Part shown: positions 23,446 through 62,305 of the stretch, piece after piece
Layout of the letters: each line of letters opens with the position of its first letter
Position numbering within the stretch: the first letter of the stretch is position 1
IMG/VR virus record: IMGVR_UViG_3300042398_001452
Direction: 5' to 3' (one strand)
From: a virus
Taxonomy: Duplodnaviria; Heunggongvirae; Uroviricota; Caudoviricetes
Length of the DNA stretch: 64,000 nucleotides
Program-made: the position numbers and the translations under genes
Notes under the pieces: model-generated
What the model was told of the DNA's origin: nothing
What the model saw: only the letters and a program-made list of their open reading frames with translations
Databases searched by the model: none

Positions 23446-23866
23446 GGGCCCGCTTTGGATTTGACAGGCGGAGGTAGTTCTTTGAAATGATGCAGGCAGG
23501 GTTAGATTGGAAATCCTTAATCACCTATCGAACAATAAACGCAAACGTTTACAACACCGAGGATATCATGAGTATCCCAACTTCTCTTACTCGCGTAGCG
23601 GTAGCAGAGGAGGCTGAGTTGCTAATGGCAGCTTAACCGGCGGGCCGCACCGGCCTAGGAACAGAAAGGTGATGGTGGAGTCTGGTCTTACCTTAAAGAC
23701 CGAAACGGAAATTCGGCTCATACCGAAGAGTACACAGACTGAGCATTAAGTTTGTAATAAAAGAAATGCAAAAAAGTTTGTCCGTGTCGAACAACGGACT
23801 AAGCCTGTGAATGAGTTTCCTGAGCATTCGATCTGGACGAGGGTTCGACTCCCTCCGGGTCCACCA
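23446..23866 (+). ncRNA. ssrA: tmRNA (transfer-messenger RNA), about 421 nt, with encoded CCA
   Basis: 5' end GGGCCCGCUUUGGAUUUGACAGG resembles the canonical tmRNA 5' end GGGGCUGAUUCUGGAUUCGACGGG. The 3' end has T-arm GAGGGUUCGACUCCCUC and acceptor CGGGUCC-ACCA pairing with the 5' GGGCCCG. An internal reading frame ends with TAA at 23634-23636 (..AEEAELLMAA) followed by a GC hairpin, as in tmRNA tag regions. A terminator follows the CCA. Confidence 0.75.
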
Positions 23867-41415: not shown

Positions 41416-42279
41416 ATGAGGCAACTTAAAATTACAACATCGATTACAAATAGATCTGATAGATCCCTAGAGAAATATCTTCAAGATATTTCAAAGGAGG
41501 AAATGATTACCGCAGACGAAGAGACAAGATTGACTAGATTAATTAGAGAGGGTGATACACGGGCTCTAGATAAGATGGTTAAAGCAAATCTAAGATTCGT
41601 TGTTTCTGTAGCTAAACAATATCAACACCAAGGACTTACTCTTACAGATCTTATTAACGAGGGTAATCTTGGTCTGATAAAAGCTGCAAAGAAGTTCGAC
41701 GAAACAAGGGGGTTCAAATTTATATCATATGCTGTTTGGTGGATCAGACAAGCTATATTAGAAGCTCTTTCCGATAAAGCAAGAGTTATTCGTATACCAC
41801 TCAATCAAGTAGGTGTTCTTGGAAAAATAAACAAGGCTTATTCTAAATTAGAACAAGATCTTGGGAGAGCTCCTACAACAGAAGAGATATCAGAAGAAAT
41901 TGACATTGCAGATCATAAGATAAAAGAAACCTTAATGACCTCAAGAAATCATGTTTCTTATGATGCTCCTATGGGTGGTGACGATGAAAATTCATCGATG
42001 ATAGATCTATTGACCAATAAGGATTTCCCGTCAACAGATTCAGTTGTAATTGAAGAGTCACTAAGAATTGATATAGAAAGAACATTAGACACTTTAGATC
42101 CTAAATGCCGTGAGATTATAAAATTAAATTATGGTATAGGATATACACACCCAAGGTCTCTTGATGAAATAGGTGAAAAATATTCATTGACTAGAGAAAG
42201 GGTTAGACAAATAAAAGAAAAAGGATTAAAAAAATTAAGAGCACAAGCTCGTACTAAGATATTAAAACAATATCTATAG
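41416..42279 (+). CDS. sigma-70 family sigma factor (RpoD/RpoS-like, with regions 1.2, 2, 3 and 4), 287 aa
   Basis: YLQDISKEEMITADEE (region 1.2), LINEGNLGLIKAAKKFD..FISYAVWWIRQAI (region 2), EIGEKYSLTRERVRQIKEKGLKKLR (region 4.2). Confidence 0.85.
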   Translation: MRQLKITTSITNRSDRSLEKYLQDISKEEMITADEETRLTRLIREGDTRALDKMVKANLRFVVSVAKQYQHQGLTLTDLINEGNLGLIKAAKKFDETRGFKFISYAVWWIRQAILEALSDKARVIRIPLNQVGVLGKINKAYSKLEQDLGRAPTTEEISEEIDIADHKIKETLMTSRNHVSYDAPMGGDDENSSMIDLLTNKDFPSTDSVVIEESLRIDIERTLDTLDPKCREIIKLNYGIGYTHPRSLDEIGEKYSLTRERVRQIKEKGLKKLRAQARTKILKQYL

Positions 42280-46152: not shown

Positions 46153-46644
46153 ATGGAAAAACAAGAAACAATGGAGAGAAGAGAAGCTACTATCGAGGCA
46201 GTTTTAGCTTTAAAAAACGACAAATCAGTAAAAGCTTGGATTGGACCAAATCACTTATTATTTGGTAAAAGCTTAGAGAACAGGGATATGTTTTTGACAA
46301 CATATCGTATAAGAAATTCATACGAGGAGCTGTTATTAAAACTTGATGTTAACGAGGAGGTTACTGATGAGAGAGATCTTATTCTAATTAAAAGATTTTT
46401 TGATATGATGTTTTATCCCCCAAGAAAAATGAGTATTAGCGATTGGAAAAATCAGAGAGACCCTATTGTGAAAATAGTTAAAGCTTATAAGGATGTAAGA
46501 TGGAAAGGTAACAGAAGAAGAAAGCACGAAATAACTTTATTGTTAGATGACGGGAAAAAGATCCAGATTAATCCTGGAGATGTATTAAACCGATTTTTTC
46601 ATATATGGGGTAATTTTGATTCCCTTATAAATTCCAAGTTATAA
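46153..46644 (+). CDS. hypothetical protein (163 aa)
   Basis: Track ORF with terminator at 46669. Confidence 0.6.
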   Translation: MEKQETMERREATIEAVLALKNDKSVKAWIGPNHLLFGKSLENRDMFLTTYRIRNSYEELLLKLDVNEEVTDERDLILIKRFFDMMFYPPRKMSISDWKNQRDPIVKIVKAYKDVRWKGNRRRKHEITLLLDDGKKIQINPGDVLNRFFHIWGNFDSLINSKL

Positions 46645-46668: not shown

Positions 46669-46697
46669 AGCCGGCTTTTCCCAAAGCCGGCTTTTTT
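46669..46697 (+). terminator. rho-independent terminator
   Basis: AGCCGGCTTT-TCCC-AAAGCCGGCT plus T6. Confidence 0.75.
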
Positions 46698-46754: not shown

Positions 46755-47126
46755 ATGGAAGAATTCGGCCCTCACATCACAATAGATCTAAAAGGATGCC
46801 CTAAAGAAACACTATCGAATTACGATTTACATTTTAATTACTTAAAGTCTCTTCCTGAACTAATTAATATGACCCCGATAACACAACCCTATGTTTTTCC
46901 TTATTCTGGATTAGTACCAGAGGATAAAGGAATAACAGGAATAGTTATAATAGCAGAAAGTCATATATCAATACATTCTTTTGAAGAAAAGGGATATTCT
47001 TTTATTGATATATTTTCTTGTAAGGATATGGACGTTGAAAGAGCTATACAGATAACTCTAGATATGTTTAAGCCTGCTGACTACGAAATAAATATAGTTA
47101 AAAGAGGTAAAGATTTTCCTAGATAA
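46755..47126 (+). CDS. speH: S-adenosylmethionine decarboxylase proenzyme, small class-1 (SpeH-like, pyruvoyl-dependent), 123 aa
   Basis: Full-length resemblance to Bacillus-type SpeH, including HITIDLKGC near the N-terminus and the self-processing site ESHISIHSF followed by GYSFIDIFSC. Confidence 0.75.
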   Translation: MEEFGPHITIDLKGCPKETLSNYDLHFNYLKSLPELINMTPITQPYVFPYSGLVPEDKGITGIVIIAESHISIHSFEEKGYSFIDIFSCKDMDVERAIQITLDMFKPADYEINIVKRGKDFPR

Positions 47127-47600
47127 TTAGTGTTTTATCTTCTTCTTTAAGTTATCTATTTCGTTTATAATATTACCCATATCATTTTTAACTATAATAG
47201 TTGATTGAGTCGGAGGTTCTGGTGAATATAATAAAGAATCACTAACTGATATTACTGGGAAAAATTCCATATTTGTTTGACTTATTATCTTATTGTTATC
47301 TTTTTTAGCTTTATTCTGCAAATAATCTAGCATTGCTACAAACTCTTTTTCCCTTTCTAATATTTGATTTGTACAGCTTTTTTGCTCCGATCTTATCTTA
47401 GTATCTTTTTCGTTTAATTCGCTCTCTAAAGCCTTTATTTTAATAGTTTTAGCATCTATTTCTTCCTTTAATTCGTCGTTGCTTTCTATCATAGAAGGAC
47501 CTATAGTTATTATCACTATGGACAATAAAATTAAAGAAAGAGCTATTACTTTCTGTGGTGTAGAAAATTGTGCTATGATTTCTGAAATATATCTAAACAT
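47127..47600 (-). CDS. membrane-anchored coiled-coil protein (157 aa)
   Basis: Track ORF on the minus strand. N-terminal TM (IALSLILLSIVIITIG), then Glu/Lys-rich helical region. Confidence 0.55.
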   Translation of the reverse strand: MFRYISEIIAQFSTPQKVIALSLILLSIVIITIGPSMIESNDELKEEIDAKTIKIKALESELNEKDTKIRSEQKSCTNQILEREKEFVAMLDYLQNKAKKDNNKIISQTNMEFFPVISVSDSLLYSPEPPTQSTIIVKNDMGNIINEIDNLKKKIKH

Positions 47601-47621
47601 ATTTTATACCTTATTTGGACT

Positions 47622-47948
47622 TTGTTAATATATACTCATATGATCAATATAATCAAAGGAAATTTAGAAATAATGTCCCAGGATTTACCAGGAAAAATGA
47701 CTTGGACTTCTGTTCCTTCGCAGATAGAATCATTTGGTGGATTCGGATGGAGATTACCTTATGAATCCGAATTTCTTACTATTTATGAGCTTTATAATTT
47801 GGGGATAGGGGGATTTAAGCCATCAAGATATTGGTCTTATTCATCCTATATTAATAAAGCTTGGTACTACGATCTTAGTGTTGGGTATTCACCACACATA
47901 GCAGATCAATCTAATCTTTACTATGTCAGACTTGTTAGAAATATCTAA
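47622..47948 (+). CDS. hypothetical protein (108 aa), paralog of 21490..21864 (DUF1566-like WRLPY core; tail YYVRLVRNI)
   Basis: See the paralog alignment described for 21490..21864. Confidence 0.5.
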   Translation: MLIYTHMINIIKGNLEIMSQDLPGKMTWTSVPSQIESFGGFGWRLPYESEFLTIYELYNLGIGGFKPSRYWSYSSYINKAWYYDLSVGYSPHIADQSNLYYVRLVRNI

Positions 47949-48144
47949 TTATCCAGATAAGGATGAGGAGAAAGCAGATATAATTTTTTGTGATCTTGTT
48001 AAAATAAAGAGAGCATTAGATTATTCGATCGAAAGAGAAATGGAACATGAATTTATTTATAGCATGATAAAATTTGCTAGAAATAATCCAGATTCTAAGG
48101 TAGAAGAAATTATAGACCTTGCTTTATCTGATTGGAAATATTAA
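47923..48144 (+). CDS. hypothetical protein (73 aa)
   Basis: Track ORF. Confidence 0.45.
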   Translation: MSDLLEISNYPDKDEEKADIIFCDLVKIKRALDYSIEREMEHEFIYSMIKFARNNPDSKVEEIIDLALSDWKY

Positions 48145-48147
48145 ATT

Positions 48148-49410
48148 CTATTTCTTTTTAAAAAAATCCTTCCAATCAACTTCCACTGGGGAATATCCAG
48201 AAGCTACTAATTTTCTAACTTCCTGTAGAGCTTTATCTGTAGAGCTTCCTTTTTTGTAAAGTCTATCCCAAGATCCGTCTTTTTTCCTACTCTGATTGTT
48301 CATTAGATCTATAGCAGTTACAGCTCCCTGTGCATTTGGATTTTTACCAACTAATTTTTTAATAGATTCCTTTTGCTTCCATAATGTTTCCTGTATAATA
48401 ACCGTCCACTTATTAGCAACAATAGTTTCTGCATTTTTTATAACATATTTAGGATCTTTATATTCTTCAGGTACTGCTATATCAAGTCTGTCGCCTATGT
48501 TCATTATTTTTACTCCGGTTTTTCTTTCTTCGTATCTTCCAGAATAATATGACTTTATTTTTTTAAATCCTAATGTTGGTAATACTCCAGTAATAGCACG
48601 CATATCGAAAAGGGTAGATCTAACCGTATGTTGTGTACAGTTAGAAAAAAGAAGATTGTAACTTTTATTGCTAGCTCCTATTACTGCAGTTGGTACATCC
48701 TTAACCTTTTTTTTCGCCCAATCACCAACTATTTTTTTAAAGTTGTCGTATTCTTTTTTGTTCATTTTTATTACGACTGATTGTTTTTTGAGATGATTTA
48801 ATTCGGAGCATACTTGATTATACATTGTTTGAGAATACTCTGGGTATATCTTTTCCCCTGTTTTAGTATCACCAACACCACCTAAAAGAACTTTATCTAT
48901 ATCAGCTTTCTCGGGCATTGCATTTATTTGATATTTAGGCTCTTTTAAAGACCAAGCTTGTAGGTGACCGAATCCTCCTCCTGCATCTTTTTGGCCCATC
49001 TCGAAGTAATCAACTACTACCGGATACTGGAACTCTTTTTTAGCATACGCCTTAATTTCTTGTTCCATTGGCATATCAGTTTCTGTGTTGTACCAATTAC
49101 CTCCCCAAACAAAATAATTACATCCTTGTTTTTTAGCTGCTAAGAAAGCTTCCTTTCTAGTTTTTTTGGATGACATATTACAAGATTTCCCTTGCTTTAT
49201 TGAATTGTAATAGAAATCTTTTAATATTCCTTTTCCCCAATTAAAAGAATCGTCGCCTTTCTTTTTTAAATTGGAGACGGTTTTTTTCCCTGTATCCAAA
49301 AGCTTATTTGCAAAATCTTTATAATCATCAAAATTCCAATATTCATTTATATCTTCACTAGATGATTCACTGATATTATTCCAATCTTTAAAAGATTTAA
49401 GATGCTTCAT
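48148..49410 (-). CDS. leader-family protein (MKHLKSFKDW), 420 aa
   Basis: Track ORF on the minus strand with leader at N-terminus. Confidence 0.7.
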   Translation of the reverse strand: MKHLKSFKDWNNISESSSEDINEYWNFDDYKDFANKLLDTGKKTVSNLKKKGDDSFNWGKGILKDFYYNSIKQGKSCNMSSKKTRKEAFLAAKKQGCNYFVWGGNWYNTETDMPMEQEIKAYAKKEFQYPVVVDYFEMGQKDAGGGFGHLQAWSLKEPKYQINAMPEKADIDKVLLGGVGDTKTGEKIYPEYSQTMYNQVCSELNHLKKQSVVIKMNKKEYDNFKKIVGDWAKKKVKDVPTAVIGASNKSYNLLFSNCTQHTVRSTLFDMRAITGVLPTLGFKKIKSYYSGRYEERKTGVKIMNIGDRLDIAVPEEYKDPKYVIKNAETIVANKWTVIIQETLWKQKESIKKLVGKNPNAQGAVTAIDLMNNQSRKKDGSWDRLYKKGSSTDKALQEVRKLVASGYSPVEVDWKDFFKKK

Positions 49411-49415
49411 TTATT

Positions 49416-49631
49416 TTAATCATTTCTTCTCATTTTAGCTAGGTTTTTTCTAACAGAAGAATCTAGATCGTCGAATGTTCTTTTTAGGCCCTTATCATAA
49501 ATATTAGATAATGATCTAGCAACACTGTTTTGCTCCAGTATTATTTCCCATTTAGGATCTTTCTCTTTGTTAATAATCTCCTCTGCTATCTCTCTCCCCA
49601 TTTCCTCAATTTTCTTTTCGTATGTTTTCAT
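49416..49631 (-). CDS. hypothetical protein (71 aa)
   Basis: Track ORF. Confidence 0.5.
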   Translation of the reverse strand: MKTYEKKIEEMGREIAEEIINKEKDPKWEIILEQNSVARSLSNIYDKGLKRTFDDLDSSVRKNLAKMRRND

Positions 49632-49656
49632 AATATTTCTATCAATAAAATGCTTT

Positions 49657-49971
49657 TTATTTCATTTGATTATATATTTTTTCCAGTTCATCAAATATTA
49701 ATTCCTCTGGATATCCATCATCTATTGATGTTTCTATAGCATCACTTATAAGGGATATGTATTTATATTCATCGCTTTGTCTATGAAATTTAGATTGATC
49801 AGCCCATCCTTTGTAGTGATTTAATATTTCTTTTATCATATTTTTTATAGCATATGGATCTGCTCCCATAGCTAAAGCATTGTTTATCTTATTAGAAATA
49901 GTAGTATAAGGGTCTTCTGATCCTGGATGAAATTCGTATAATCTCAAGAAATCTGTATATTTTTTTATCAC
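49657..49971 (-). CDS. hypothetical protein (104 aa)
   Basis: Track ORF. Confidence 0.55.
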   Translation of the reverse strand: MIKKYTDFLRLYEFHPGSEDPYTTISNKINNALAMGADPYAIKNMIKEILNHYKGWADQSKFHRQSDEYKYISLISDAIETSIDDGYPEELIFDELEKIYNQMK

Positions 49972-50026
49972 TTCTTATATATCTGGAAATAAATACTGTT
50001 TTATTACTATAATTAATAAAAATAAA

Positions 50027-51007
50027 ATGGTAAAGAAAAAAGGACCCATATGTATGTTTATAGAGAGAAACTATAAACACTTTAATGCAGCTGCCTTAAA
50101 AGATGCAGCTATAGGATACGAAAAACATATAGATAGCGGAGGAAAGATGCTCGTGTCTCTAGCAGGTGCAATGAGTACAGCAGAGCTTGGTATTTCACTT
50201 GCTGAAATGATAAGAGAAGGAAAAATTGATATAATATCTTGTACAGGAGCAAACTTAGAGGAGGATTTAATGAACCTAGTAGCTCACTCTCACTACAAGA
50301 GAATACCTAACTACCGCGATTTAACTCCTCAGCAAGAAAGGGATCTTTTAGATAAGGGACTGAATAGAGTTACAGATACATGTATACCCGAGGAAGAAGC
50401 TTTTAGAAGACTACAGACCCACATATATGATATTTGGAAAGAAGCTGAAGATAAAGGAGAAAGATATTTTCCGCATGAATACATGTACAAATTAATCAAT
50501 AGTGGAATACTAGCTCAATATTATGAGATAGATCCTAAGGATTCTTGGATGATTGAAGCAGCTAAAAGAAATCTACCGATGGTTGTTCCTGGATGGGAGG
50601 ATTCAACAATGGGAAATATATTTGCTTCTTATGTTATTAAAGGTGAACTAAAAGCTGAAACAGTTAAAAGTGGTATAGAGTATATGGTAGATCTTAGCCA
50701 TTGGTACAGAAATAATTGTTCACCGATGGGTGTCGGTTTCTTTCAAATAGGAGGGGGAATTGCTGGGGATTTTCCTATATGTGTTGTTCCTATGATGTAT
50801 CAGGATCTTGAATGGGAGGATGTTCCTTTCTGGTCTTATTTCTGTCAGATCTCTGATTCGACTACATCATACGGTTCTTATTCAGGAGCAGTACCAAACG
50901 AGAAGATTACATGGGGAAAATTGGATGCAGATACACCAAAATTTGTTATTGAGTCCGATGCAACAATAGTTGCTCCTCTAATGTTCGCTTGGATATTAAA
51001 TAAGTGA
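50027..51007 (+). CDS. deoxyhypusine synthase-like / homospermidine synthase-like NAD-dependent aminobutyl transferase, 326 aa
   Basis: KIDIISCTGANLEEDL (cf. DHS V-D-V-L-V-T-T-A-G-G-V-E-E-D-L), FFQIGGGIAGD, and C-terminal GAVPNEKITWGKLDADTPKFVIESDATIVAPLMFAWIL (cf. DHS [35 protein letters not shown]). Confidence 0.75.
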   Translation: MVKKKGPICMFIERNYKHFNAAALKDAAIGYEKHIDSGGKMLVSLAGAMSTAELGISLAEMIREGKIDIISCTGANLEEDLMNLVAHSHYKRIPNYRDLTPQQERDLLDKGLNRVTDTCIPEEEAFRRLQTHIYDIWKEAEDKGERYFPHEYMYKLINSGILAQYYEIDPKDSWMIEAAKRNLPMVVPGWEDSTMGNIFASYVIKGELKAETVKSGIEYMVDLSHWYRNNCSPMGVGFFQIGGGIAGDFPICVVPMMYQDLEWEDVPFWSYFCQISDSTTSYGSYSGAVPNEKITWGKLDADTPKFVIESDATIVAPLMFAWILNK

Positions 51008-56658: not shown

Positions 56659-57231
56659 ATGGCAGAAACAGTTAATTTACCCAATCCAAAAGACCGGAAT
56701 CTTTTCTTCAATAGACAAGTAAACCAAAGCTCGGTAAATGATCTTTGTAAGAATCTAGTAGATATTTCAGAGCATGACCAGTATATCAAAAAGATATATG
56801 AAGCACATGATCTTATATACGTACCAAAGCCTATTAAAATATATGTAGATTCTTATGGTGGATACGTATATCAATGTCTAGGTCTTATAGGGATAATGGA
56901 AACATGTAAAACCGAGATTCATACAATTGTAACTGGATGTGCTATATCTTGCGGATTTTTAATAGCCATATCAGGACACAAAAGATTCGGATATGATAGA
57001 TCAACTTATTTATATCATCAGGTAGCAGGAGGAGCTTTTGGAAAGGTTAAGGATATAGAAGAGGAACTTTTAGAGATCTTAAGATTACAAGAAACTACAG
57101 AGGATATAACCCTAAGAAAAACTTCAATAAGTAAAAAAATGCTAGAGAAAGTTTATAAAGGCAAAAAAGACTGGTATATGGATAGTAGAGAGGCATTAAA
57201 ATTAGGTGTAATAGACGAAATAATAAAATAA
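56659..57231 (+). CDS. ClpP-family serine protease, 190 aa
   Basis: IYVDSYGGYVYQCLGLIGIME...IVTGCAISCGFLIAISG...YLYHQVAGGAFG follows the ClpP pattern (nSpGG....aIyD.m......T...G.AaSmg..ll..G.....p.s.imiHQp.gg). Confidence 0.75.
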   Translation: MAETVNLPNPKDRNLFFNRQVNQSSVNDLCKNLVDISEHDQYIKKIYEAHDLIYVPKPIKIYVDSYGGYVYQCLGLIGIMETCKTEIHTIVTGCAISCGFLIAISGHKRFGYDRSTYLYHQVAGGAFGKVKDIEEELLEILRLQETTEDITLRKTSISKKMLEKVYKGKKDWYMDSREALKLGVIDEIIK

Positions 57232-58658
57232 TGTCCGAGGATAAAATTATATCTAAGTCTATAGTAGATCTTTCAACTCTAAACGAGGATCAGAGAAAAT
57301 CATTTGATTTAATGAAAGATTTCATTTATGACAGGAATGATGACGATATTTATGTTTTAAAGGGATGGGCAGGTACTGGTAAAACATATTGTGTAAGCAT
57401 ACTTGTTAGATATGTTCTTGATGTAATATATCCAGACAAAAATTGGTACAAAATAGCTGTTACTGGTCCAACGAATAAATCGGTTAGGGTTATTAAAAAA
57501 AGTACAGGTATAAAAAATCCTAGGGTTGTTTTTCAGACTATACATAAAATGTTAGGTCTAACAGAGAGAATAACACAGGACGGGCAACAGGAATTTGTTA
57601 ATCAGGGTGATTTTGTTCCACCTATTGAGAAAACAAAATTGCTTATAATAGATGAGGTTTCTATGCTCAATGATGATCTATTCCACGAGATATTGAGATA
57701 TAGGGATAAGGTTAAAATTATATGTATGGGAGATCCTGCTCAGATCCCACCAGTCGGTAAGCCTGATTGCATACCATTCAGAGATGAATTTTCTGAAATG
57801 TATGGTATAAAAACAATAGAGCTTAAAACTATAATGAGACAGAAGGGAGATAATCCAATTATAAGCACTTCTGTTACTATAAGAAATGATCTAGAAAATC
57901 CTTACGTTGATACAGGAAATGATTCTAGATTAAATGATAGAGGCGAAGGGATAGAAATAATAAATCTAAATTCCAGCGACAAAAGAGTTACCTTCTCTGA
58001 TATATTATCCAGCTATTTTAAAACTGAAGAATTTAAAGAAGATTCAGAATATTCTAAGATTATAGCTTGGAGAAATAAAACGGTTGAAACTATGAATAAT
58101 CTTGTTAGAAAGGTTATTTATGGAGAGGAGAATATAGGATCTAAAATATTGATAGGAGAGAAGCTTATAGCTAATAATCCAATAATGGATATGAATCAAA
58201 TACTTTTTAATACTAACGACGAATTCAGTGTTGAGGAGTTTGAGATAAAAAAAGAAAAGGTTAGAGTTGGAGATGATGAGGGTATACTAAAATATTATGA
58301 AGCAAGGGTCAGTTACTTAAATGATGACGACAAAAAGATTTATTATTATATAGATATACTACACGAGGATAGCGAATCCTATTTTAATGTTCTAGCAGGG
58401 AAACTTAAAAAAATAGCTATAGAGAAAAGAGGAAAAGAAAAATCCTGGATAAAGTACTACGAATTTATTAGAAGATTTGCAGATGTTAGTTATGCTTATG
58501 CAATAACAGCTCATAAATCTCAAGGGAGTACATATAATACAGCTTTTGTTCTCGAAGACGATATAGATGTTAATACTAATATAGTTGAGAGAAATAGAAT
58601 AAAATACACAGCATACACAAGATCAAGTAAAAAATTATATGTACTTAAACGATTTTAA
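57231..58658 (+). CDS. Dda/RecD-like superfamily-1 DNA helicase, 475 aa
   Basis: Walker A GWAGTGKT, Walker B LLIIDEVSM, GDPAQIPPV, and C-terminal AITAHKSQGST motif. Confidence 0.85.
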   Translation: MSEDKIISKSIVDLSTLNEDQRKSFDLMKDFIYDRNDDDIYVLKGWAGTGKTYCVSILVRYVLDVIYPDKNWYKIAVTGPTNKSVRVIKKSTGIKNPRVVFQTIHKMLGLTERITQDGQQEFVNQGDFVPPIEKTKLLIIDEVSMLNDDLFHEILRYRDKVKIICMGDPAQIPPVGKPDCIPFRDEFSEMYGIKTIELKTIMRQKGDNPIISTSVTIRNDLENPYVDTGNDSRLNDRGEGIEIINLNSSDKRVTFSDILSSYFKTEEFKEDSEYSKIIAWRNKTVETMNNLVRKVIYGEENIGSKILIGEKLIANNPIMDMNQILFNTNDEFSVEEFEIKKEKVRVGDDEGILKYYEARVSYLNDDDKKIYYYIDILHEDSESYFNVLAGKLKKIAIEKRGKEKSWIKYYEFIRRFADVSYAYAITAHKSQGSTYNTAFVLEDDIDVNTNIVERNRIKYTAYTRSSKKLYVLKRF

Positions 58659-59013
58659 TCTAAGACACCTATTAGCAATATTTTTTGCTATTGGTATAGC
58701 ACACGAGGCTAATATTTTATTAGGATTATCATTTCCTATTTTGTCCCTAATTTATACAGTTGGGCTACTATTAATAATATTTAATTTTACACAGCTAAAA
58801 AACTATGTTTGGCCTCCTGGATTAGGTATAATTGGTATTTTTTCACTGATCTATTTTATATTTCTTTTAATTGGATATGGTGAGAAATTTTTTAGAGATC
58901 TTTCTTCCGTCATATCCATATTGGTTTGGTTTAAATGTATATCATATCTAACAGATAATAATAGCGAGGAGGATCAAGATGACGGGTGGGAAATAAACGA
59001 AGAAAATGAATAA
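58639..59013 (+). CDS. hypothetical membrane protein (124 aa)
   Basis: Track ORF with three hydrophobic segments and an acidic tail. Confidence 0.5.
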   Translation: MYLNDFNLRHLLAIFFAIGIAHEANILLGLSFPILSLIYTVGLLLIIFNFTQLKNYVWPPGLGIIGIFSLIYFIFLLIGYGEKFFRDLSSVISILVWFKCISYLTDNNSEEDQDDGWEINEENE

Positions 59014-59446
59014 AAAAATGAAGACATCAGAAAAGTATAGACATATAGGATATTCATACCCAGGGGTACCAAATCCATGGAAACCTATAGTTGAAAAAGC
59101 AATAGTAGAGATAGAAAAAGAAATGTGGCCTAGATGGATACCTCTTTTTATAAAAAGATTGATACATTACTTAGCAACTGGAAATAGTGTGGTTAGAGTT
59201 AGAAGTTGGTTCTGGTATAGAATAAGAACAAAATTAACCAAAGGACAAATTATAACCGATATTAAAGATAAGTTTGCTACTCTAAGAATTTATGGGCATT
59301 TTGGAGAGGAGATAGAAAAAATAATAGAGCAAGCTGAAGACGAATGTTACAAAACATGTGAAAGGTGTGGTGGTAAAGAAAAAGTTAGAAGCGTCGGTAA
59401 AGGATGGATATACAATCTATGCAAAACGTGTAGAAAACCAAAATAA
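59006..59446 (+). CDS. hypothetical protein with C-terminal zinc ribbon (146 aa)
   Basis: CERCGG...CKTCRK. Confidence 0.55.
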   Translation: MNKKMKTSEKYRHIGYSYPGVPNPWKPIVEKAIVEIEKEMWPRWIPLFIKRLIHYLATGNSVVRVRSWFWYRIRTKLTKGQIITDIKDKFATLRIYGHFGEEIEKIIEQAEDECYKTCERCGGKEKVRSVGKGWIYNLCKTCRKPK

Positions 59447-59485
59447 TCATTTTTTATATCAATAAAAAATTCCTATCTTTATAAT
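59445..59485 (+). promoter_or_regulatory. EPM variant
   Basis: AATCATTTTTTATATCAATAAAAAATTCCTATCTTTATAAT abutting ATG 59486. Confidence 0.45.
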
Positions 59486-60304
59486 ATGAAAGTACTAACA
59501 TTAGGAGATGTACATGGTCGTGATAGGTGGATGTTTCATACACACGGAAGCCCTTACGAGTTCAATCACTGGATGACATTGGTTGAGAATGGAGTACCTG
59601 CGGACGAAGCCGAATTTTGGAAAGAAATGCCTTATATGCAATACGATAAGATTGTATTCGTTGGCGATTATGTTGATAGCTTCGATATTAGCAATGCCGT
59701 TATATTAGACAATCTTAAAAAAATACTTTTCTTTAAAAAAGCATTACCTGATAAGGTTGTACTTTTACTTGGAAATCATGATATTCAATATTTCGTTCCT
59801 AACGAAGTATGTAGCGGATATAGAGCAGAAATGAAACCAGATCTTTATCAGTTATTTACGGAGAATAAAGAATGTTTTAAAGTGGCTCACTTAGAGAAGG
59901 ATAATACGGGGGTTAAGTATTTATGGACACATGCAGGTGTTACCAATGGATGGCTAAAAGATGTTTGTAAAGATATTAATAATCCAAGATATAGACATTA
60001 CGAAATAGCTAAGGATTTTGATCCAAATGACCTAGATAAATTTATAAACGATCTATTTGAGCTTCGGGTTGACAATATATTTAACGTTGATGCTCACAGT
60101 GGTGGATATAACTTATGGGCAGGACCATTTTGGATTAGACCCACAATATTAAATGATTATCCTCTAGAAGGTGTTAATCAAATAGTAGGACACACACCAC
60201 AAAAAACGGTTAAAGATATCATCTGTGGAAAAGTTACTCATTATTTAGTAGATTGCCTTTTCGATGACTGTGACGAAGTTCTAGTTTTAGATATAGAAAA
60301 ATGA
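59486..60304 (+). CDS. calcineurin-like metallophosphoesterase (Ser/Thr phosphatase-like), 272 aa
   Basis: GDVHG, GDYVD and GNHD motifs in canonical order. EPM-like motif upstream. Confidence 0.8.
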   Translation: MKVLTLGDVHGRDRWMFHTHGSPYEFNHWMTLVENGVPADEAEFWKEMPYMQYDKIVFVGDYVDSFDISNAVILDNLKKILFFKKALPDKVVLLLGNHDIQYFVPNEVCSGYRAEMKPDLYQLFTENKECFKVAHLEKDNTGVKYLWTHAGVTNGWLKDVCKDINNPRYRHYEIAKDFDPNDLDKFINDLFELRVDNIFNVDAHSGGYNLWAGPFWIRPTILNDYPLEGVNQIVGHTPQKTVKDIICGKVTHYLVDCLFDDCDEVLVLDIEK

Positions 60305-60624
60305 CAAGAAAATTTAAATTTTATAAGGAAGATGATAATAGATGGTTTGTAGATCTACCTGAATGGGAAGGTGAAAAAGACGATCTTGAAATGGTTCTAG
60401 GAGCAGATACTCTTTTAGAGATATTATCCGGAGAATCTGACTATTGCTTTGTCACTTTTTCTGATGAACCATTTGAAGATTCTAAGATACTTTCTTATGA
60501 TCATAATGAATCTACACAAGGATATTATAACAATGACGCATGGCACGGACCATCTACAATCTGGCTCTGTTACGTTACAGAATTTGTATTTGGTAAATAT
60601 CCAGAAAAGATCTACTATAAATAG
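60301..60624 (+). CDS. hypothetical protein (107 aa)
   Basis: Track ORF with ATGA overlap. Confidence 0.55.
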   Translation: MTRKFKFYKEDDNRWFVDLPEWEGEKDDLEMVLGADTLLEILSGESDYCFVTFSDEPFEDSKILSYDHNESTQGYYNNDAWHGPSTIWLCYVTEFVFGKYPEKIYYK

Positions 60625-60679
60625 ATAATTCCATATCAATTTTTCATCACAGGGGGATATATAAAAGAAAATATTCTCA

Positions 60680-62305
60680 GTGAAATATAGTTTAAGAATA
60701 AAAATCACACTAGCCATTGCTTCTATCCTAATGATTTGTTATATGTGTGTTAAAATTGCGGTTCTTGCTGAATTACGAGAATCTACAGAAACTACTAGAT
60801 GGATAGAATTTTTTGGCGTTATTTCGTTAATTCCTATATCAATCCTGTTAATCAAAGACTTTATTAATTCTACTAAAGATTCAGTATCTAAAGATTCTGT
60901 GAATAAGATGATTGAACTTGAGAATTTTTTAGATTCATCTGCTATTATTTCTAAAGCTGATAAAAACGGAAAGATAACTTATGTGAATAATAAATTTACG
61001 GAAGTCTCTGGTTATTCATTAGAAGATGTAATTGGTAAAGATCATAATATCGTAAACAGTGGAACACATCCGAAAGAATTCTGGACAGACATGTATCGTA
61101 CTGTTGTTAAAGAAAGAAAGATCTGGAACTCTGTATGTACTAATCGCACAAAAGATGGTTCTTTATACTATGTAGATACATTCATTAAATGTGAGTTTGA
61201 CGAAAAAGGCAATCTTCAGGGGTTTATGTCAATACGTCAAGACGTAACAGAGATAAAAAGAAAAGAGATAGAGATATCTAATAGAATGAATGCTATTAAC
61301 AGATCAAATGCTGTTATTGAATTTGATTTAGAGGGCAATATAAGATTTGCAAACGATTCATTTCTAAATGTATTAGGATATTCGCAGGAAGAAATCGTAG
61401 GGAAGCATCATAGTATATTTATTGAAGATGATGTAAAAGCGACTGATGAATATCATAATTTTTGGAAAACTTTAGGTAAAGGCGAATTCTTCAGTGGTGA
61501 AATCACAAGAAAGAAAAAAGACGGTACGTTAATTTATCTACAAGCAACATATAACCCTATCATAGGACCCGATGGAAAACCATATCGAGTAATGAAAATT
61601 GCTACTGATATTACTGAAAGTTATAATCAACAGAAAGAGATAGAAAAGAAAAATACATATCTTGAGCATGCTGCTAAAATACTTAGACACGATATGCACA
61701 GTGGAATTAACACATATATGCCTAGAGGTCTAAGCTCTTTAGATAGAAGATTATCAGAAGAACAAATAAAGGAACTTAAAATTGAAGCTCCTATTAAAAT
61801 GATTAAGGAAGGCCTTCGACACACACAAAAAGTTTATAAAGGGGTTTATGAGTTTACAAATCTTGTAAAGAAAGACGTAGTTCTCAATAGAGAAAAATGT
61901 AATCTAAAAAATATTCTTGAAGACTACTTATCAGCAACTGCATATAGACCGCAGGTTGATTTAGGAGATTTGGGAGAATTAAGCGTTAATGAGGCTCTTT
62001 TTTGTACTGCATTAGATAATTTAATAAGAAACGGATTAAAATACAATGACAGTAATAATAAGATAGTAAAAATATACAGAATAGATGATATATTATATGT
62101 AGAAGATAACGGTAGAGGATTAAGCTCTGAGGAGTTTAAATTACTTTCCCAACCATATACTCGTAAGGAAGGGCAGAAAGAATCTGGTACTGGATTAGGA
62201 TTAAATATATGTATAGCAATATTAGAGGAACACGGATTTAGTGTCTCATGTGATAGACTTCCTGAAATTGGAAGCCAAATAAAAATAAATTTAAAAAATG
62301 ATTGA
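60680..62305 (+). CDS. sensor histidine kinase with N-terminal TM anchor, two PAS domains, HisKA and HATPase_c, 541 aa
   Basis: Two PAS-like segments (GKITYVNNKFTEVSGYSLEDVIGKDHNIV...; GNIRFANDSFLNVLGYSQEEIVGKHHSIF...), H-box LRHDMHSGIN, and ATPase motifs LIRNGLKYN / VEDNGRGL / GTGLGLNI. Confidence 0.8.
   Translation: MKYSLRIKITLAIASILMICYMCVKIAVLAELRESTETTRWIEFFGVISLIPISILLIKDFINSTKDSVSKDSVNKMIELENFLDSSAIISKADKNGKITYVNNKFTEVSGYSLEDVIGKDHNIVNSGTHPKEFWTDMYRTVVKERKIWNSVCTNRTKDGSLYYVDTFIKCEFDEKGNLQGFMSIRQDVTEIKRKEIEISNRMNAINRSNAVIEFDLEGNIRFANDSFLNVLGYSQEEIVGKHHSIFIEDDVKATDEYHNFWKTLGKGEFFSGEITRKKKDGTLIYLQATYNPIIGPDGKPYRVMKIATDITESYNQQKEIEKKNTYLEHAAKILRHDMHSGINTYMPRGLSSLDRRLSEEQIKELKIEAPIKMIKEGLRHTQKVYKGVYEFTNLVKKDVVLNREKCNLKNILEDYLSATAYRPQVDLGDLGELSVNEALFCTALDNLIRNGLKYNDSNNKIVKIYRIDDILYVEDNGRGLSSEEFKLLSQPYTRKEGQKESGTGLGLNICIAILEEHGFSVSCDRLPEIGSQIKINLKND

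What the first reader, a model, noticed from the sequence alone, without database searches (positions are those of the whole stretch)
46755..51007. Phage-encoded polyamine pair: SpeH-type S-adenosylmethionine decarboxylase plus deoxyhypusine-synthase-like (homospermidine-synthase-like) enzyme
46755..47126 matches class-1 pyruvoyl AdoMetDC throughout (self-cleavage site AESHISIHSF). 50027..51007 matches DHS/homospermidine synthase motifs (IDIISCTGANLEEDL, GGG NAD motif, C-terminal GAVPNEKITWGKLDADTPKF..APLMFAWIL). Together they could make decarboxy-SAM and aminobutyl-transfer products (homospermidine, or deoxyhypusination of a target). Polyamine genes are well known in chloroviruses, but a DHS-like enzyme in a bacteriophage is unusual. 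Phage SpeH homologues can also be arginine decarboxylases.
Basis: partly seen in the sequence, partly recalled or inferred. Interest (0 to 1): 0.7.

Follow-up and report, generated by a model that had tools for sequence, protein, structure and literature searches.

The report
Huge-phage arginine-to-homospermidine enzyme pair
A huge bacteriophage that probably infects Bacteroidota carries two real, well-conserved polyamine genes, most likely a small arginine decarboxylase and a host-derived SpeY enzyme, which together would drive production of the polyamine homospermidine through a route not previously reported in any virus.

Summary
Both ORFs exist exactly as described. 46755..47126 is an AdoMet_dc-fold protein (Pfam 6e-27) and 50027..51007 is a deoxyhypusine-synthase-fold protein (Pfam 1.5e-41). 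All catalytic residues are present. The proposed chemistry (decarboxy-SAM plus aminobutyl transfer) is probably wrong.

The DHS-like protein is a standard orthologue of Bacteroidota SpeY. It is about 80% identical to them and keeps 150 of 150 invariant columns. Its bacterial orthologues sit in ADC–speB–speY operons. Published work shows that such SpeY enzymes couple two agmatines into bis-guanidino-homospermidine (G44G), which a SpeB-type ureohydrolase converts to homospermidine.

The "SpeH" protein lacks the proline that is invariant in true AdoMetDCs. It falls in the clade of an experimentally verified arginine decarboxylase (54.5% identity, against 23–35% to verified AdoMetDCs). Its nearest cellular relatives are followed by agmatinase genes (59 of 80) and often by speY.

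The best reading is therefore: phage arginine decarboxylase makes agmatine, phage SpeY makes G44G, and a host ureohydrolase makes homospermidine. The pair co-occurs in nine IMG/VR huge-phage contigs and is under strong purifying selection. A 2023 survey found no viral SpeY, so this is a new member of a known class. Interest is moderate. Enzyme activities are inferred, not measured.

The parts
46669..46692 (+). Terminator-like hairpin (10-bp stem, 6 G-C pairs, T-run) between the upstream ORF (46153..46644) and the SpeD-like gene. It suggests the decarboxylase gene starts its own transcription unit.
   Evidence: 7 terminator-like sites found in the region against 2.4 +/- 2.0 in shuffles; this is the strongest one; sequence shown. 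Function is inferred.
46755..47126 (+). speDA-like gene: a 123-aa class-1b AdoMetDC-fold pyruvoyl proenzyme, predicted to be an L-arginine decarboxylase (SpeDA) and not an AdoMetDC.
   Evidence: Pfam PF02675 at 94.5 bits. 54.5% identical to the verified ADC V. chlorellavorus SpeD2, against 23-35% to verified AdoMetDCs. Clade support 223/300. 59 of the 80 nearest cellular homologues are followed by an agmatinase gene and 14 of 80 also by speY. dN/dS 0.03-0.18.
46956..46961 (+). Codons for Glu68-Ser69, the predicted autocatalytic cleavage site. Ser69 would become the pyruvoyl cofactor.
   Evidence: Aligns with T. maritima ES63H. Residue roles from PMC10407285. Coordinates.
46974..46985 (+). His74-Ser-Phe-Glu77, the 'HSFE' motif. 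His74 is the catalytic histidine. Glu77 occupies the position of the Pro in 'HTWPE', which is invariant in bona fide AdoMetDCs and lost in SpeDA enzymes.
47019..47021 (+). Codon for Cys89, the catalytic/processing cysteine (T. maritima C83 equivalent).
47127..49971 (.). Spacer of six small or orphan ORFs, mostly on the minus strand, that varies between related phages. It is not part of the enzymatic module. Its length ranges from about 50 bp to 2.9 kb in close relatives, and the 420-aa ORF 48148..49410 is absent from the 344-kb relative.
   Evidence: There are no informative family hits apart from a weak Lcl_C match (47622..47948).
50027..51007 (+). speY gene: a 326-aa deoxyhypusine-synthase-fold, NAD-dependent enzyme orthologous to Bacteroidota SpeY. 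It is predicted to couple two agmatines into N1,N9-bis(guanidino)homospermidine (G44G).
   Evidence: Pfam PF01916 at 143 bits. 80-83% identical to Bacteroidota proteins. Keeps 150/150 columns that are invariant in 78 bacterial orthologues. Orthologues lie in ADC-speB-speY operons. Biochemistry of Bacteroidota SpeY from PMC13625781. dN/dS 0.03-0.11.
50750..50758 (+). Codons for Gly242-Gly243-Gly244, the glycine motif of the DHS-family dinucleotide site (GGGIAGDF, invariant in the Bacteroidota/phage group).
50900..50920 (+). Codons for Glu292...Trp296-Gly-Lys298. Lys298 aligns with the catalytic lysine of DHS (human Lys329), which forms the enzyme-imine intermediate.
   Evidence: Alignment to solved DHS chains. 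Invariant across 13 diverse SpeY sequences. Coordinates. Human residue numbering is from my own knowledge.

Best explanation
The window comes from a huge phage (relatives on contigs of 344 kb and larger) that most likely infects Bacteroidota. It carries the first two steps of the agmatine-dependent homospermidine pathway. Step 1 (inferred): the 123-aa SpeD-fold proenzyme cleaves itself between Glu68 and Ser69, which creates an N-terminal pyruvoyl group, and it decarboxylates L-arginine to agmatine. That makes it a 'SpeDA' enzyme and not an AdoMet decarboxylase. Step 2 (inferred from orthology to characterised enzymes): the NAD-dependent SpeY oxidises one agmatine, carries the 4-guanidinobutyl group on Lys298 as an imine, transfers it to the amino group of a second agmatine and reduces it. 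The product is N1,N9-bis(guanidino)homospermidine (G44G). Step 3 (inferred): no ureohydrolase gene was found in the window or on the related phage contigs searched, so the host's SpeB-type G44G ureohydrolase would remove both guanidino groups to give homospermidine. The module is a mosaic. speY was captured from a Bacteroidota host. The decarboxylase comes from a clade that is otherwise found in Omnitrophota, Planctomycetota, Melainabacteria and Desulfobacterales and in other huge phages. It replaces the host's 466-477-aa PLP-dependent ADC with a cofactor-free 123-aa enzyme. The likely benefit is a boosted polyamine supply during replication, translation and packaging of a very large genome.
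For: SpeY identity. The protein is 80-83% identical to Bacteroidota 'deoxyhypusine synthase family' proteins and keeps 150/150 columns that are invariant in 78 bacterial orthologues. It is as close to Weeksellaceae and Saprospiraceae proteins as those are to each other (80.2%). The orthologues lie in PLP-ADC - agmatinase-family - SpeY operons with overlapping ORFs; the SpeB there passes the agmatinase equivalog at 212 bits against a cut-off of 174. This is the architecture of the W. algicola cluster, whose SpeY makes G44G in E. coli and whose SpeB acts on G44G but not on agmatine (PMC13625781).

Decarboxylase identity. The catalytic S69/H74/C89 are conserved, while the Pro that is invariant in AdoMetDCs is replaced. 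The protein is 54.5% identical to V. chlorellavorus SpeD2, a verified ADC that is inactive as an AdoMetDC (PMC10407285), against 23-35% to five verified AdoMetDCs and T. maritima. In an NJ tree the phage clade is monophyletic in 270/300 bootstraps and lies inside the SpeD2-type clade, which separates from bona fide enzymes in 223/300. Of the 80 closest cellular homologues, 59 are immediately followed by an agmatinase gene (TIGR01230, 240 bits against 174), 14 also by a canonical G44G-synthase SpeY (NF002699, 593 bits against 500), and 18 have a separate canonical speD directly upstream. Li et al. report that speDA genes typically cluster with speY, and that the SpeY pathway depends on agmatine and not putrescine.

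Linkage. 9 of 25 IMG/VR contigs carrying this decarboxylase also carry speY, in three different arrangements. Both genes have dN/dS of 0.03-0.18 with saturated dS.

Missing third step. There is no speB, speE or PLP-ADC in the window, within 10 kb of any viral copy, or on the 154-465-kb contigs of these lineages.
Against: No enzyme activity was measured, so substrate specificity rests on phylogeny, one diagnostic residue and gene context. The protein marginally passes NCBI's AdoMetDC equivalog (77.5 bits against a cut-off of 75.65), whereas the verified ADC scores 66.5. My tree is NJ on 136 columns, contains only one verified ADC of this clade and contains no verified ODC sequences. The two genes are not an operon in this window: they are 2.9 kb apart with opposite-strand ORFs between them. 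Related huge phages carry the decarboxylase without speY, so the decarboxylase has a role of its own. I could not obtain the W. algicola SpeY sequence, so orthology to the assayed enzyme is inferred from phylum, operon architecture and the roughly 80% conservation across Bacteroidota classes. The Bacteroidota/phage SpeY type fails every NCBIfam equivalog, including the G44G-synthase model (82-87 bits against 500). Only 64 kb of the phage genome was available, and the SpeB census used just two peptide patterns. The host is inferred, not shown.
Confidence: 0.68

Rival explanations
1. The small protein is a genuine S-adenosylmethionine decarboxylase that makes decarboxy-SAM for the host spermidine synthase. 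The DHS-like enzyme separately makes homospermidine from spermidine/putrescine or deoxyhypusinates a protein.
For: Pfam AdoMet_dc hit and a marginal pass of the NCBIfam AdoMetDC equivalog, 77.5 bits against 75.65. Automated source annotation names it 'S-adenosylmethionine decarboxylase'. Solo bona fide speD genes are common in cyanophages and occur in a Bacteroidota phage, Croceibacter P2559S.
Against: The Pro that is invariant in all bona fide AdoMetDCs is replaced by Glu77. Identity to verified AdoMetDCs is only 23-35%, including 23% to the Bacteroidota-phage enzyme P2559S. The protein lies in the clade of a verified ADC that failed to complement delta-speD. In 18 cellular genomes its homologue sits next to a separate canonical speD, which implies a different function. 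No speE accompanies any viral copy. Bacterial SpeY enzymes tested so far use agmatine; only eukaryotic DHS needed spermidine.
Confidence: 0.1
2. The small protein is a pyruvoyl ornithine decarboxylase (SpeDC) that makes putrescine, as several freshwater phage SpeD homologues do.
For: Phage SpeD homologues with ODC activity exist. SpeDC enzymes may have evolved from the same broad SpeDA group, and one verified SpeDC is from Omnitrophota.
Against: All verified SpeDC enzymes form a single clade together with pelagiphage HTVC201P. The window protein is only about 21% identical to pelagiphage homologues and separates from them in the tree. It has Glu-Ser-His and Phe-Ser-Cys where the pelagiphage/SpeDC-like sequences have Thr-Ser-His and Tyr-Thr-Cys (mapping these to the paper's diagnostic residues is my inference). 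Its nearest cellular relatives are followed by an agmatinase-equivalog gene, not an arginase. Putrescine is not the SpeY substrate.
Confidence: 0.07
3. The two genes are functionally independent auxiliary genes that merely lie in the same variable genome region. The decarboxylase feeds agmatine into whatever host pathway exists, and speY is a separately useful host-derived gene.
For: The genes are not co-transcribed here: opposite-strand ORFs lie between them and a terminator precedes speDA. Many related huge phages have the decarboxylase alone. About 49 IMG/VR contigs have a SpeY-type gene without it. In one lineage the genes are 15-47 kb apart.
Against: Nine contigs carry both genes, against about 0.0005 expected if the 25 and 58 contigs were independent draws from 2.9 million (relatedness inflates this). 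Proximity survives rearrangement, from 2.9 kb down to about 50 bp in convergent orientation. The product of one enzyme is the known substrate of the other. Even under this rival, the enzymes would still act in series in the infected cell.
Confidence: 0.1
4. The DHS-like enzyme modifies a protein (a deoxyhypusine-like lysine modification of a phage or host translation factor) and does not make a free polyamine.
For: The DHS fold and the catalytic lysine are conserved. Giant viruses encode eIF5A homologues. Huge phages carry many translation-related genes, including a tmRNA in this window.
Against: The protein is indistinguishable from bacterial SpeY orthologues that sit in ADC-speB-speY operons. 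It fails all DHS equivalogs. The position of DHS His288 is not conserved (GDF against KHH). A class-II aaRS-like gene near speY in one lineage proved to be only a weak AsnRS fragment, not an EF-P-modifying EpmA.
Confidence: 0.03

Closest known systems
Bacterial and archaeal speDA-speB-speY homospermidine clusters (for example Capsulimonas corticalis, Ca. Marinimicrobia, DPANN archaea; Li et al. 2023 JBC PMC10407285; Li et al. 2026 JBC PMC13625781)
   Same: They combine a SpeD-fold pyruvoyl arginine decarboxylase with a DHS-fold SpeY. The closest cellular relatives of the phage decarboxylase (63-66% identity) are themselves in speDA-speB-speY clusters.
   Different: The phage has no speB. Its genes are not contiguous. 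Its SpeY is the Bacteroidota type, only about 24% identical to the canonical SpeY of those clusters. The phage module is therefore assembled from two unrelated sources.
Bacteroidota ADC-speB-speY operon (Winogradskyella algicola, characterised in PMC13625781; Saprospiraceae and Weeksellaceae loci L110, L112, L004)
   Same: The SpeY is orthologous (about 80% identity, all invariant residues kept). The pathway logic is the same: arginine to agmatine to G44G to homospermidine.
   Different: The host uses a 466-477-aa PLP-dependent 'ancestral AR-fold' ADC, whereas the phage uses an unrelated 123-aa pyruvoyl enzyme. The host operon includes the G44G ureohydrolase; none was found on the phage sequence examined.
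Pelagiphage HTVC201P SpeD-derived arginine decarboxylase (Li et al. 2023 PNAS PMC9992855)
   Same: A phage-encoded, SpeD-fold enzyme of about 120 aa, mis-annotated as AdoMetDC, that makes agmatine for a host whose own pathway includes SpeY.
   Different: It represents a different evolutionary emergence. The window protein is about 21% identical to pelagiphage homologues and belongs to the V. chlorellavorus-type SpeDA clade. Pelagiphages carry no speY.
Virus-encoded homospermidine synthase HSS (chlorovirus PBCV-1, Ralstonia phage phiRSL1, Imitervirales)
   Same: A virus-encoded route to homospermidine.
   Different: HSS is non-homologous (related to carboxyspermidine dehydrogenase) and condenses two putrescines. 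SpeY has the DHS fold and uses agmatine.
Eukaryotic/archaeal deoxyhypusine synthase
   Same: Same fold (PF01916), the GGG dinucleotide motif, and the catalytic Lys in the ...E...WGK motif.
   Different: E-values against solved DHS chains are only 1e-8 to 1e-11. It fails every DHS equivalog (about 100 bits against 300-430). The His288 and Asp316 equivalents differ. There is no eIF5A substrate context.
Cyanophage / Croceibacter phage SpeD (bona fide AdoMetDC)
   Same: Same superfamily and size, and also a solo auxiliary gene in phages.
   Different: These keep the HTWPE proline and complement delta-speD. The window protein is 23-28% identical to them and lacks the proline.

Membership tests
Class 1b AdoMetDC/SpeD superfamily (PF02675) | Full-length match to the family profile | tested here: met
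   94.5 bits, E 6.4e-27, profile 1-107/107; phrog_3125
Class 1b AdoMetDC/SpeD superfamily (PF02675) | Self-processing Ser (T. maritima S63) plus catalytic His (H68) and Cys (C83) | tested here: met
   Ser69, His74 and Cys89 with identical spacing
Bona fide S-adenosylmethionine decarboxylase (SpeD/SpeH) | Invariant Pro of the HTWPE motif (diagnostic in PMC10407285 Fig. 8) | tested here: not met
   HSFEE: Glu77 occupies the Pro position
Bona fide S-adenosylmethionine decarboxylase (SpeD/SpeH) | Groups with experimentally verified AdoMetDCs | tested here: not met
   23-35% identity to six reference enzymes; separated from them in 223/300 NJ bootstraps
Bona fide S-adenosylmethionine decarboxylase (SpeD/SpeH) | Passes the curated equivalog model TIGR03330 | tested here: inconclusive
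   77.5 bits against a cut-off of 75.65, a marginal pass. A verified ADC of the same clade scores 66.5. Canonical SpeD1 scores 143.5 on Pfam against 94.5 here.
Bona fide S-adenosylmethionine decarboxylase (SpeD/SpeH) | Decarboxylates AdoMet / complements delta-speD | not testable with these tools
   Requires an enzyme assay
SpeDA (SpeD-derived pyruvoyl arginine decarboxylase), V. chlorellavorus-type clade | Groups with a verified member (WP_181385235) | tested here: met
   54.5% identity. Shares the ITQPYVFPY.GL.PEDKGITG, HSF and RG.DFPR motifs. Lies in the same clade.
SpeDA (SpeD-derived pyruvoyl arginine decarboxylase), V. chlorellavorus-type clade | Genomic association with agmatine-consuming enzymes (speB/aguA, speY) | tested here: met
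   59/80 nearest cellular homologues have an agmatinase gene immediately downstream and 14/80 also have speY. In phages the gene is paired with speY on 9 contigs.
SpeDA (SpeD-derived pyruvoyl arginine decarboxylase), V. chlorellavorus-type clade | Decarboxylates L-arginine, not L-ornithine, L-lysine or AdoMet | not testable with these tools
   Requires an enzyme assay
SpeDC (SpeD-derived pyruvoyl ornithine decarboxylase) | Member of the single SpeDC clade (which includes pelagiphage HTVC201P) | tested here: not met
   About 21% identity to pelagiphage homologues, which fall outside the phage protein's clade. No verified SpeDC sequence was available for the tree.
SpeDC (SpeD-derived pyruvoyl ornithine decarboxylase) | Four diagnostic residues (Gln, Thr, Phe, Tyr) in the central region | tested here: inconclusive
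   The figure was not readable. By comparison with pelagiphage sequences, the window protein has E-S-H and F-S-C rather than T-S-H and Y-T-C.
Deoxyhypusine synthase superfamily (PF01916) | Full-length profile match, GGG dinucleotide motif, catalytic Lys in the WGK motif | tested here: met
   143.1 bits, profile 11-286/288; GGG at 242-244 and Lys298 aligned to the DHS catalytic Lys
Deoxyhypusine synthase proper (eIF5A/aIF5A-modifying) | Passes a DHS equivalog model; conserved spermidine-site residues (human His288, Asp316) | tested here: not met
   97-106 bits against cut-offs of 304-434. GDF aligns where DHS has KHH, and Tyr aligns where DHS has Asp316 (human numbering is from my own knowledge).
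SpeY (agmatine-coupling G44G synthase), Bacteroidota type | Orthology to Bacteroidota SpeY | tested here: met
   80-83% identity; 150/150 invariant columns kept; nested inside the Bacteroidota radiation
SpeY (agmatine-coupling G44G synthase), Bacteroidota type | Orthologues are encoded with an arginine decarboxylase and a SpeB-type ureohydrolase | tested here: met
   L110 and L112: ADC - Arginase-family - DS. L004: ADC - DS with a 4-nt overlap.
SpeY (agmatine-coupling G44G synthase), Bacteroidota type | Direct sequence comparison with the assayed W. algicola SpeY | not tested
SpeY (agmatine-coupling G44G synthase), canonical type (NCBIfam NF002699) | Passes the equivalog cut-off | tested here: not met
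   82.5 bits against 500. The bacterial Bacteroidota orthologue also fails (87 bits), whereas the SpeY next to cellular speDA genes passes (593 bits). The model does not cover the Bacteroidota subfamily.
SpeY (any type) | Forms G44G from two agmatines | not testable with these tools
   Requires expression in E. coli delta-speB and LC-MS, as in PMC13625781
Huge phage (>200 kb) genome | Viral hallmark genes and genome size | tested here: inconclusive
   A syntenic 344-kb contig. IMG/VR classifies related contigs as viral. ORFans match only the 636-kb phage LR756504. PHROG hits to a sigma factor, Dda helicase, HNH endonuclease and a tail-lysin-like CHAP protein. No capsid, portal or terminase gene lies in this 64-kb window.

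The most novel reading that the evidence does not exclude
The phage deliberately stops at G44G. It encodes the decarboxylase and SpeY, but no ureohydrolase was found on any contig examined. It may therefore flood the cell with the doubly guanidinylated polycation N1,N9-bis(guanidino)homospermidine as its own end product, for example as a counter-ion to condense and package a genome of 344 kb or more, or to perturb host physiology. That would be the first virus-specific polyamine and a new biological role for G44G in mesophiles.
Probability: 0.1. Interest if true: 0.75.

Novelty: new member of a known kind. Interest (0 to 1): 0.45.

Why it matters
Virus-encoded polyamine enzymes are an established topic, but the most thorough survey (Li et al. 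2023, PNAS) explicitly failed to find any SpeY in viruses or phages. The SpeY route was shown to run through agmatine and G44G across diverse bacteria only in 2026. This locus fills that gap and shows several things.

- Phages can encode the DHS-fold homospermidine route as well as the HSS route.
- A phage built a two-step pathway from parts of different ancestry: a host-derived SpeY plus a small, cofactor-free arginine decarboxylase from an unrelated lineage that is widespread in huge phages.
- Both automatic annotations ('S-adenosylmethionine decarboxylase' and 'deoxyhypusine synthase') are functionally misleading.
- Homospermidine or agmatine supply is probably limiting for huge-phage replication in Bacteroidota.

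The hypothesis is directly testable with the E. coli deletion strains and LC-MS assays that already exist. It is not a new kind of biology, because the enzymes, the pathway and the concept of viral polyamine genes are all known.

Tried and rejected
1. I first judged the IMG/VR speY contigs L014-L028 to be bacterial fragments, because of their long ORFs and shared synteny. This was wrong for L014-L016 and L026. The same contigs (465, 178 and 40 kb) also carry the SpeD-like gene 15-47 kb away and are huge-phage-like. The status of the other roughly 49 speY contigs remains undetermined.
2. A class-II aaRS-like ORF near speY in L015 suggested an EpmA-type EF-P modification link. NCBIfam shows only a weak AsnRS fragment (22.8 bits), so I dropped the idea.
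3. 'Microcystis phage MaAM05' looked like the closest cultured-phage relative. Its speH_2-speH_1-speE-speB region is essentially the Vampirovibrio chlorellavorus cluster: the SpeD2 proteins differ by one residue. It therefore adds no independent phage evidence.
4. The first NJ bootstrap runs were invalid, once because of a timeout and once because of NaN distances. I repeated the analysis with a corrected distance cap.
5. I tried to obtain the W. algicola SpeY sequence or accession from the paper and its supplement, without success.
6. Sigma-70-type promoter scan: sites were fewer than in shuffles (17 against 25.8), so I made no promoter claim.
7. Megablast of 20 kb of the window against GenBank phages gave no match.
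8. I considered structure prediction and fold search but did not run them. Full-length Pfam matches and residue-level alignments already establish the folds, and a model would not resolve substrate specificity.

Full report
OBSERVATION. 46755..47126 (+) encodes 123 aa and 50027..51007 (+) encodes 326 aa. The first protein matches Pfam AdoMet_dc over the whole profile (94.5 bits, E 6.4e-27). The second matches Pfam DS (deoxyhypusine synthase) over positions 11-286 of 288 (143.1 bits, E 1.5e-41). All the quoted motifs are present at the residue positions listed.

WHAT KIND OF GENOME. The window has about 32% G+C, and almost all genes lie on one strand. Most ORFs have no Pfam or PHROG match. Those that do are phage-typical or typical of huge phages: two sigma-70-family factors, a Dda-like helicase, ClpP, an HNH endonuclease, a CHAP 'tail lysin'-like protein and an HD phosphohydrolase. 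There is also a tmRNA, confirmed by Rfam at 92.7 bits against a gathering score of 47. Megablast finds nothing in 50,697 GenBank phage records. The large ORFans hit only LR756504, a 636-kb uncultured phage. A 344-kb metagenomic contig is syntenic with the window across sigma factor, SpeD-like, DS, CHAP, ClpP, helicase and Metallophos genes. IMG/VR classifies related contigs of up to 206 kb as viral. I conclude that this is a huge phage. That conclusion is inferred, because no capsid or terminase gene lies in the 64 kb.

THE DHS-LIKE GENE IS A BACTEROIDOTA SpeY. A search of 5.8 billion proteins returns a block of 87-100% identical proteins. The ones I checked (P0001, and the IMG/VR loci L009-L013) lie in this phage lineage. 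Below that block come thousands of proteins at about 80-84% identity. The named ones are 'deoxyhypusine synthase family protein' from Saprospiraceae, Weeksellaceae and other Bacteroidota.

In those bacteria the gene is the last in an operon. In Saprospiraceae-type loci the order is PLP-dependent Orn/Arg decarboxylase (466 aa), Arginase-family protein (290-298 aa), then DS, with overlapping or closely spaced ORFs. In a Weeksellaceae locus the order is decarboxylase (477 aa) then DS, with a 4-nt overlap. The middle gene passes the agmatinase equivalog (212 bits against 174), and the decarboxylase best matches biosynthetic arginine decarboxylase.

This is the 'ancestral AR-fold ADC + SpeB + SpeY' cluster that Li et al. 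(2026, PMC13625781) describe for the Bacteroidota species Winogradskyella algicola. They showed that its SpeY makes N1,N9-bis(guanidino)homospermidine (G44G) from agmatine in E. coli. Homospermidine appears only when a SpeB is present, and the W. algicola SpeB hydrolyses G44G but not agmatine.

The phage protein keeps all 150 alignment columns that are invariant in 78 bacterial orthologues. It is as similar to Weeksellaceae and Saprospiraceae proteins (about 80%) as those are to each other (80.2%). The core phage sequences form their own clade (199/200 bootstraps) nested in the Bacteroidota radiation.

Against solved DHS structures the match is remote (E 1e-8 to 1e-11), but the ...E...WGK motif with the catalytic lysine (Lys298) and the GGG motif align. 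The protein fails every NCBIfam DHS or SpeY equivalog (about 80-107 bits against cut-offs of 300-500). So does its bacterial orthologue, which means the curated models simply do not cover this subfamily. I could not obtain the W. algicola sequence itself, so the link to the assayed enzyme is an inference from phylum, operon architecture and the very high conservation of the family.

THE 'SpeH' GENE IS MOST LIKELY AN ARGININE DECARBOXYLASE. The processing and catalytic residues Ser69, His74 and Cys89 align with T. maritima S63, H68 and C83. The canonical HTWPE motif, however, reads HSFEE here. Li et al. (2023, PMC10407285) report that this proline is completely conserved in bona fide AdoMetDCs and is lost in SpeD-derived arginine decarboxylases (SpeDA).

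A scan of one genome per GTDB species finds the closest cellular relatives (50-66% identity) in Omnitrophota, Planctomycetia, Vampirovibrionales/Melainabacteria and Desulfobacterales, and almost none in Bacteroidota. Their gene contexts break down as follows.
- 59 of the 80 loci are followed directly (about +50 bp) by a gene that passes the agmatinase equivalog (240 bits against 174) and fails the arginase equivalog.
- 18 loci have a separate canonical speD immediately upstream (HTWPE motif, 143 bits on Pfam), and 11 have speE.

One of these loci is the Vampirovibrio chlorellavorus speD1-speD2-speE-speB cluster. Its SpeD2 (WP_181385235) was shown experimentally to be an arginine decarboxylase that cannot replace AdoMetDC. 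The phage protein is 54.5% identical to that enzyme. It is only 23-35% identical to five verified AdoMetDCs (phages phiN3, phiYS40, S-PM2 and P2559S, and V. chlorellavorus SpeD1) and to the T. maritima enzyme.

In a bootstrapped NJ tree the phage sequences are monophyletic (270/300). They lie within the SpeD2-type clade, which separates from the bona fide enzymes and the pelagiphage homologues (223/300). Ornithine decarboxylase is unlikely, because all verified SpeDC enzymes form one clade with pelagiphage HTVC201P, and the phage protein is only about 21% identical to pelagiphage homologues. One caveat is that the protein just passes NCBI's AdoMetDC equivalog (77.5 bits against 75.65), while the verified ADC scores 66.5.

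LINKAGE AND SELECTION. Every IMG/VR contig with a close speY (77% identity or more) also has the decarboxylase gene nearby. The spacer between them varies from 2.9 kb (this window) through 1.2-1.8 kb down to about 50 bp in convergent orientation (L029).

A wider census finds 25 viral contigs with the decarboxylase and 59 loci with a SpeY-type gene. Nine contigs have both, including a second huge-phage lineage (465-, 178- and 40-kb contigs) in which the genes are 15-47 kb apart. Other huge-phage contigs of 436 and 508 kb, a lineage on contigs up to 633 kb, and the 735-kb LR756501 (within the roughly 10 kb I read) carry the decarboxylase without a detected speY. The decarboxylase is therefore the older and more widespread huge-phage gene. 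SpeY was added in some lineages from Bacteroidota hosts, possibly more than once, because the L029 SpeY does not group with the core clade (10/200) although its decarboxylase does.

Among the phage copies, non-synonymous divergence is 0.04-0.16 while synonymous divergence is saturated (0.55-0.77). That gives dN/dS of about 0.03-0.18 for both genes. These are long-maintained functional genes.

No speB, speE, canonical speD or PLP-ADC is found in the window, within 10 kb of any viral copy, or (by a two-pattern profile scan) on the 154-465-kb contigs of these lineages.

MECHANISM (inferred). The sequence shows intact catalytic residues. Literature on orthologues and clade members, together with the family mechanism, gives the following steps.
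1. The proenzyme cleaves itself at Glu68|Ser69 to form a pyruvoyl enzyme that converts L-arginine to agmatine.
2. SpeY uses bound NAD to oxidise agmatine, carries the 4-guanidinobutyl group on Lys298, transfers it to a second agmatine and reduces the product to G44G.
3. The host's G44G-specific SpeB releases homospermidine.

The phage thus replaces the host's large PLP-dependent ADC with a 123-aa cofactor-free enzyme and duplicates the committed step. From my own knowledge, homospermidine is the major polyamine of many Flavobacteriia, Cytophagia and Saprospiria, which fits the inferred host range. I put the whole chain at 0.68, the SpeY assignment at about 0.85 and the ADC assignment at about 0.75.

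COMPARISON WITH WHAT IS KNOWN, AND NOVELTY. The enzymes, the pathway and the idea of viral polyamine genes are all known: bacterial speDA-speB-speY clusters, the Bacteroidota ADC-speB-speY operon, the pelagiphage SpeDA, and viral HSS. Four things are new.
- A phage-encoded SpeY. Li et al. [quoted passage not shown] GenBank phages still contain none. Full-text searches find no report.
- A phage member of the V. chlorellavorus-type SpeDA clade, distinct from the pelagiphage emergence.
- The combination of the two as a mosaic two-step module with no speB found.
- The module's distribution across huge-phage lineages.

I classify this as a new member of a known kind, with moderate interest (0.45). 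A polyamine or phage-AMG specialist would find it a useful and readily testable extension, but not a surprise. The most novel reading that I cannot exclude is that G44G itself is the phage's end product (probability about 0.1).

The families, the intact active sites, the polyamine role and the rarity in phages are correct. The decarboxy-SAM / aminobutyl-transfer mechanism and deoxyhypusination are not supported.

Noticed in passing
window 23446-23866 (+): A full-length tmRNA gene (ARAGORN; Rfam RF00023 at 92.7 bits against a gathering score of 47). ARAGORN predicts an unusually long tag peptide, ANVYNTEDIMSIPTSLTRVAVAEEAELLMAA. No tRNA genes are present in the 64 kb.
   Followed up: partly
window 5725-6597 (+) and 41416-42279 (+): Two sigma-70-family factor genes (phrog_351, E 1e-52 and 2.6e-68). 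The second one is conserved upstream of the polyamine genes in the 344-kb relative. This suggests phage-directed transcription with its own promoter specificity.
   Followed up: no
L116 (GenBank MW495066.1 'Microcystis phage MaAM05', 246315-249093): The speH_2-speH_1-speE-speB cluster of this 274-kb 'phage' record encodes proteins almost identical to Vampirovibrio chlorellavorus SpeD1 and SpeD2 (SpeD2 differs by one residue). guaD and purL lie nearby. The record may be a mis-assigned or contaminated bacterial sequence, or a very recent transfer.
   Followed up: partly
L029 10272-12721 (IMGVR_UViG_3300020172_005598): In the relative where the two genes lie convergently about 50 bp apart, a phosphoribosyltransferase gene and a NAPRTase-family gene (NAD salvage) lie 7.5-10 kb from speY. 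SpeY needs NAD.
   Followed up: no
L018, L025, L028 and about 49 further IMG/VR loci (L190-L240): Many IMG/VR 'viral' contigs carry SpeY-type genes (37-66% identical) without the SpeD-like gene. Three have a speB-like gene directly next to speY. A marine group sits at about 46% identity. I did not determine whether these are true phages, proviruses or bacterial fragments.
   Followed up: partly
window 47622-47948 (+): A small ORF with a weak Lcl_C (DUF1566-like) match (30.3 bits, below the cut-off) lies between the two polyamine genes. It is conserved at the same place in the 133- and 344-kb relatives (L126, L127).
   Followed up: no
window 48148-49410 (-): This 420-aa orphan ORF on the opposite strand is present here and in the identical contigs but absent from the 344-kb relative. 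It accounts for most of the spacer-length difference (2.9 kb against 1.4 kb).
   Followed up: partly
window 56659-62305 (+): A run of ClpP protease (PF00574, 97.9 bits), a Dda/PIF1-like helicase, a Metallophos phosphoesterase and a 541-aa protein. The identical gene in a related contig carries PAS domains and a HATPase_c domain, so it is sensor-kinase-like, which is unusual cargo for a phage.
   Followed up: no
L015 11947-12831 (465-kb contig IMGVR_UViG_3300023174_000033): A 294-aa class-II aaRS-like ORF lies two genes downstream of speY. NCBIfam shows only a weak AsnRS fragment (22.8 bits), not an EF-P-modifying EpmA.
   Followed up: yes
window 11528-12307 (+); L015 15689-16834: An M28-family peptidase gene occurs both in this window and near speY in the 465-kb lineage, along with Metallophos genes. 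These may be shared core genes of a broader huge-phage clade.
   Followed up: no
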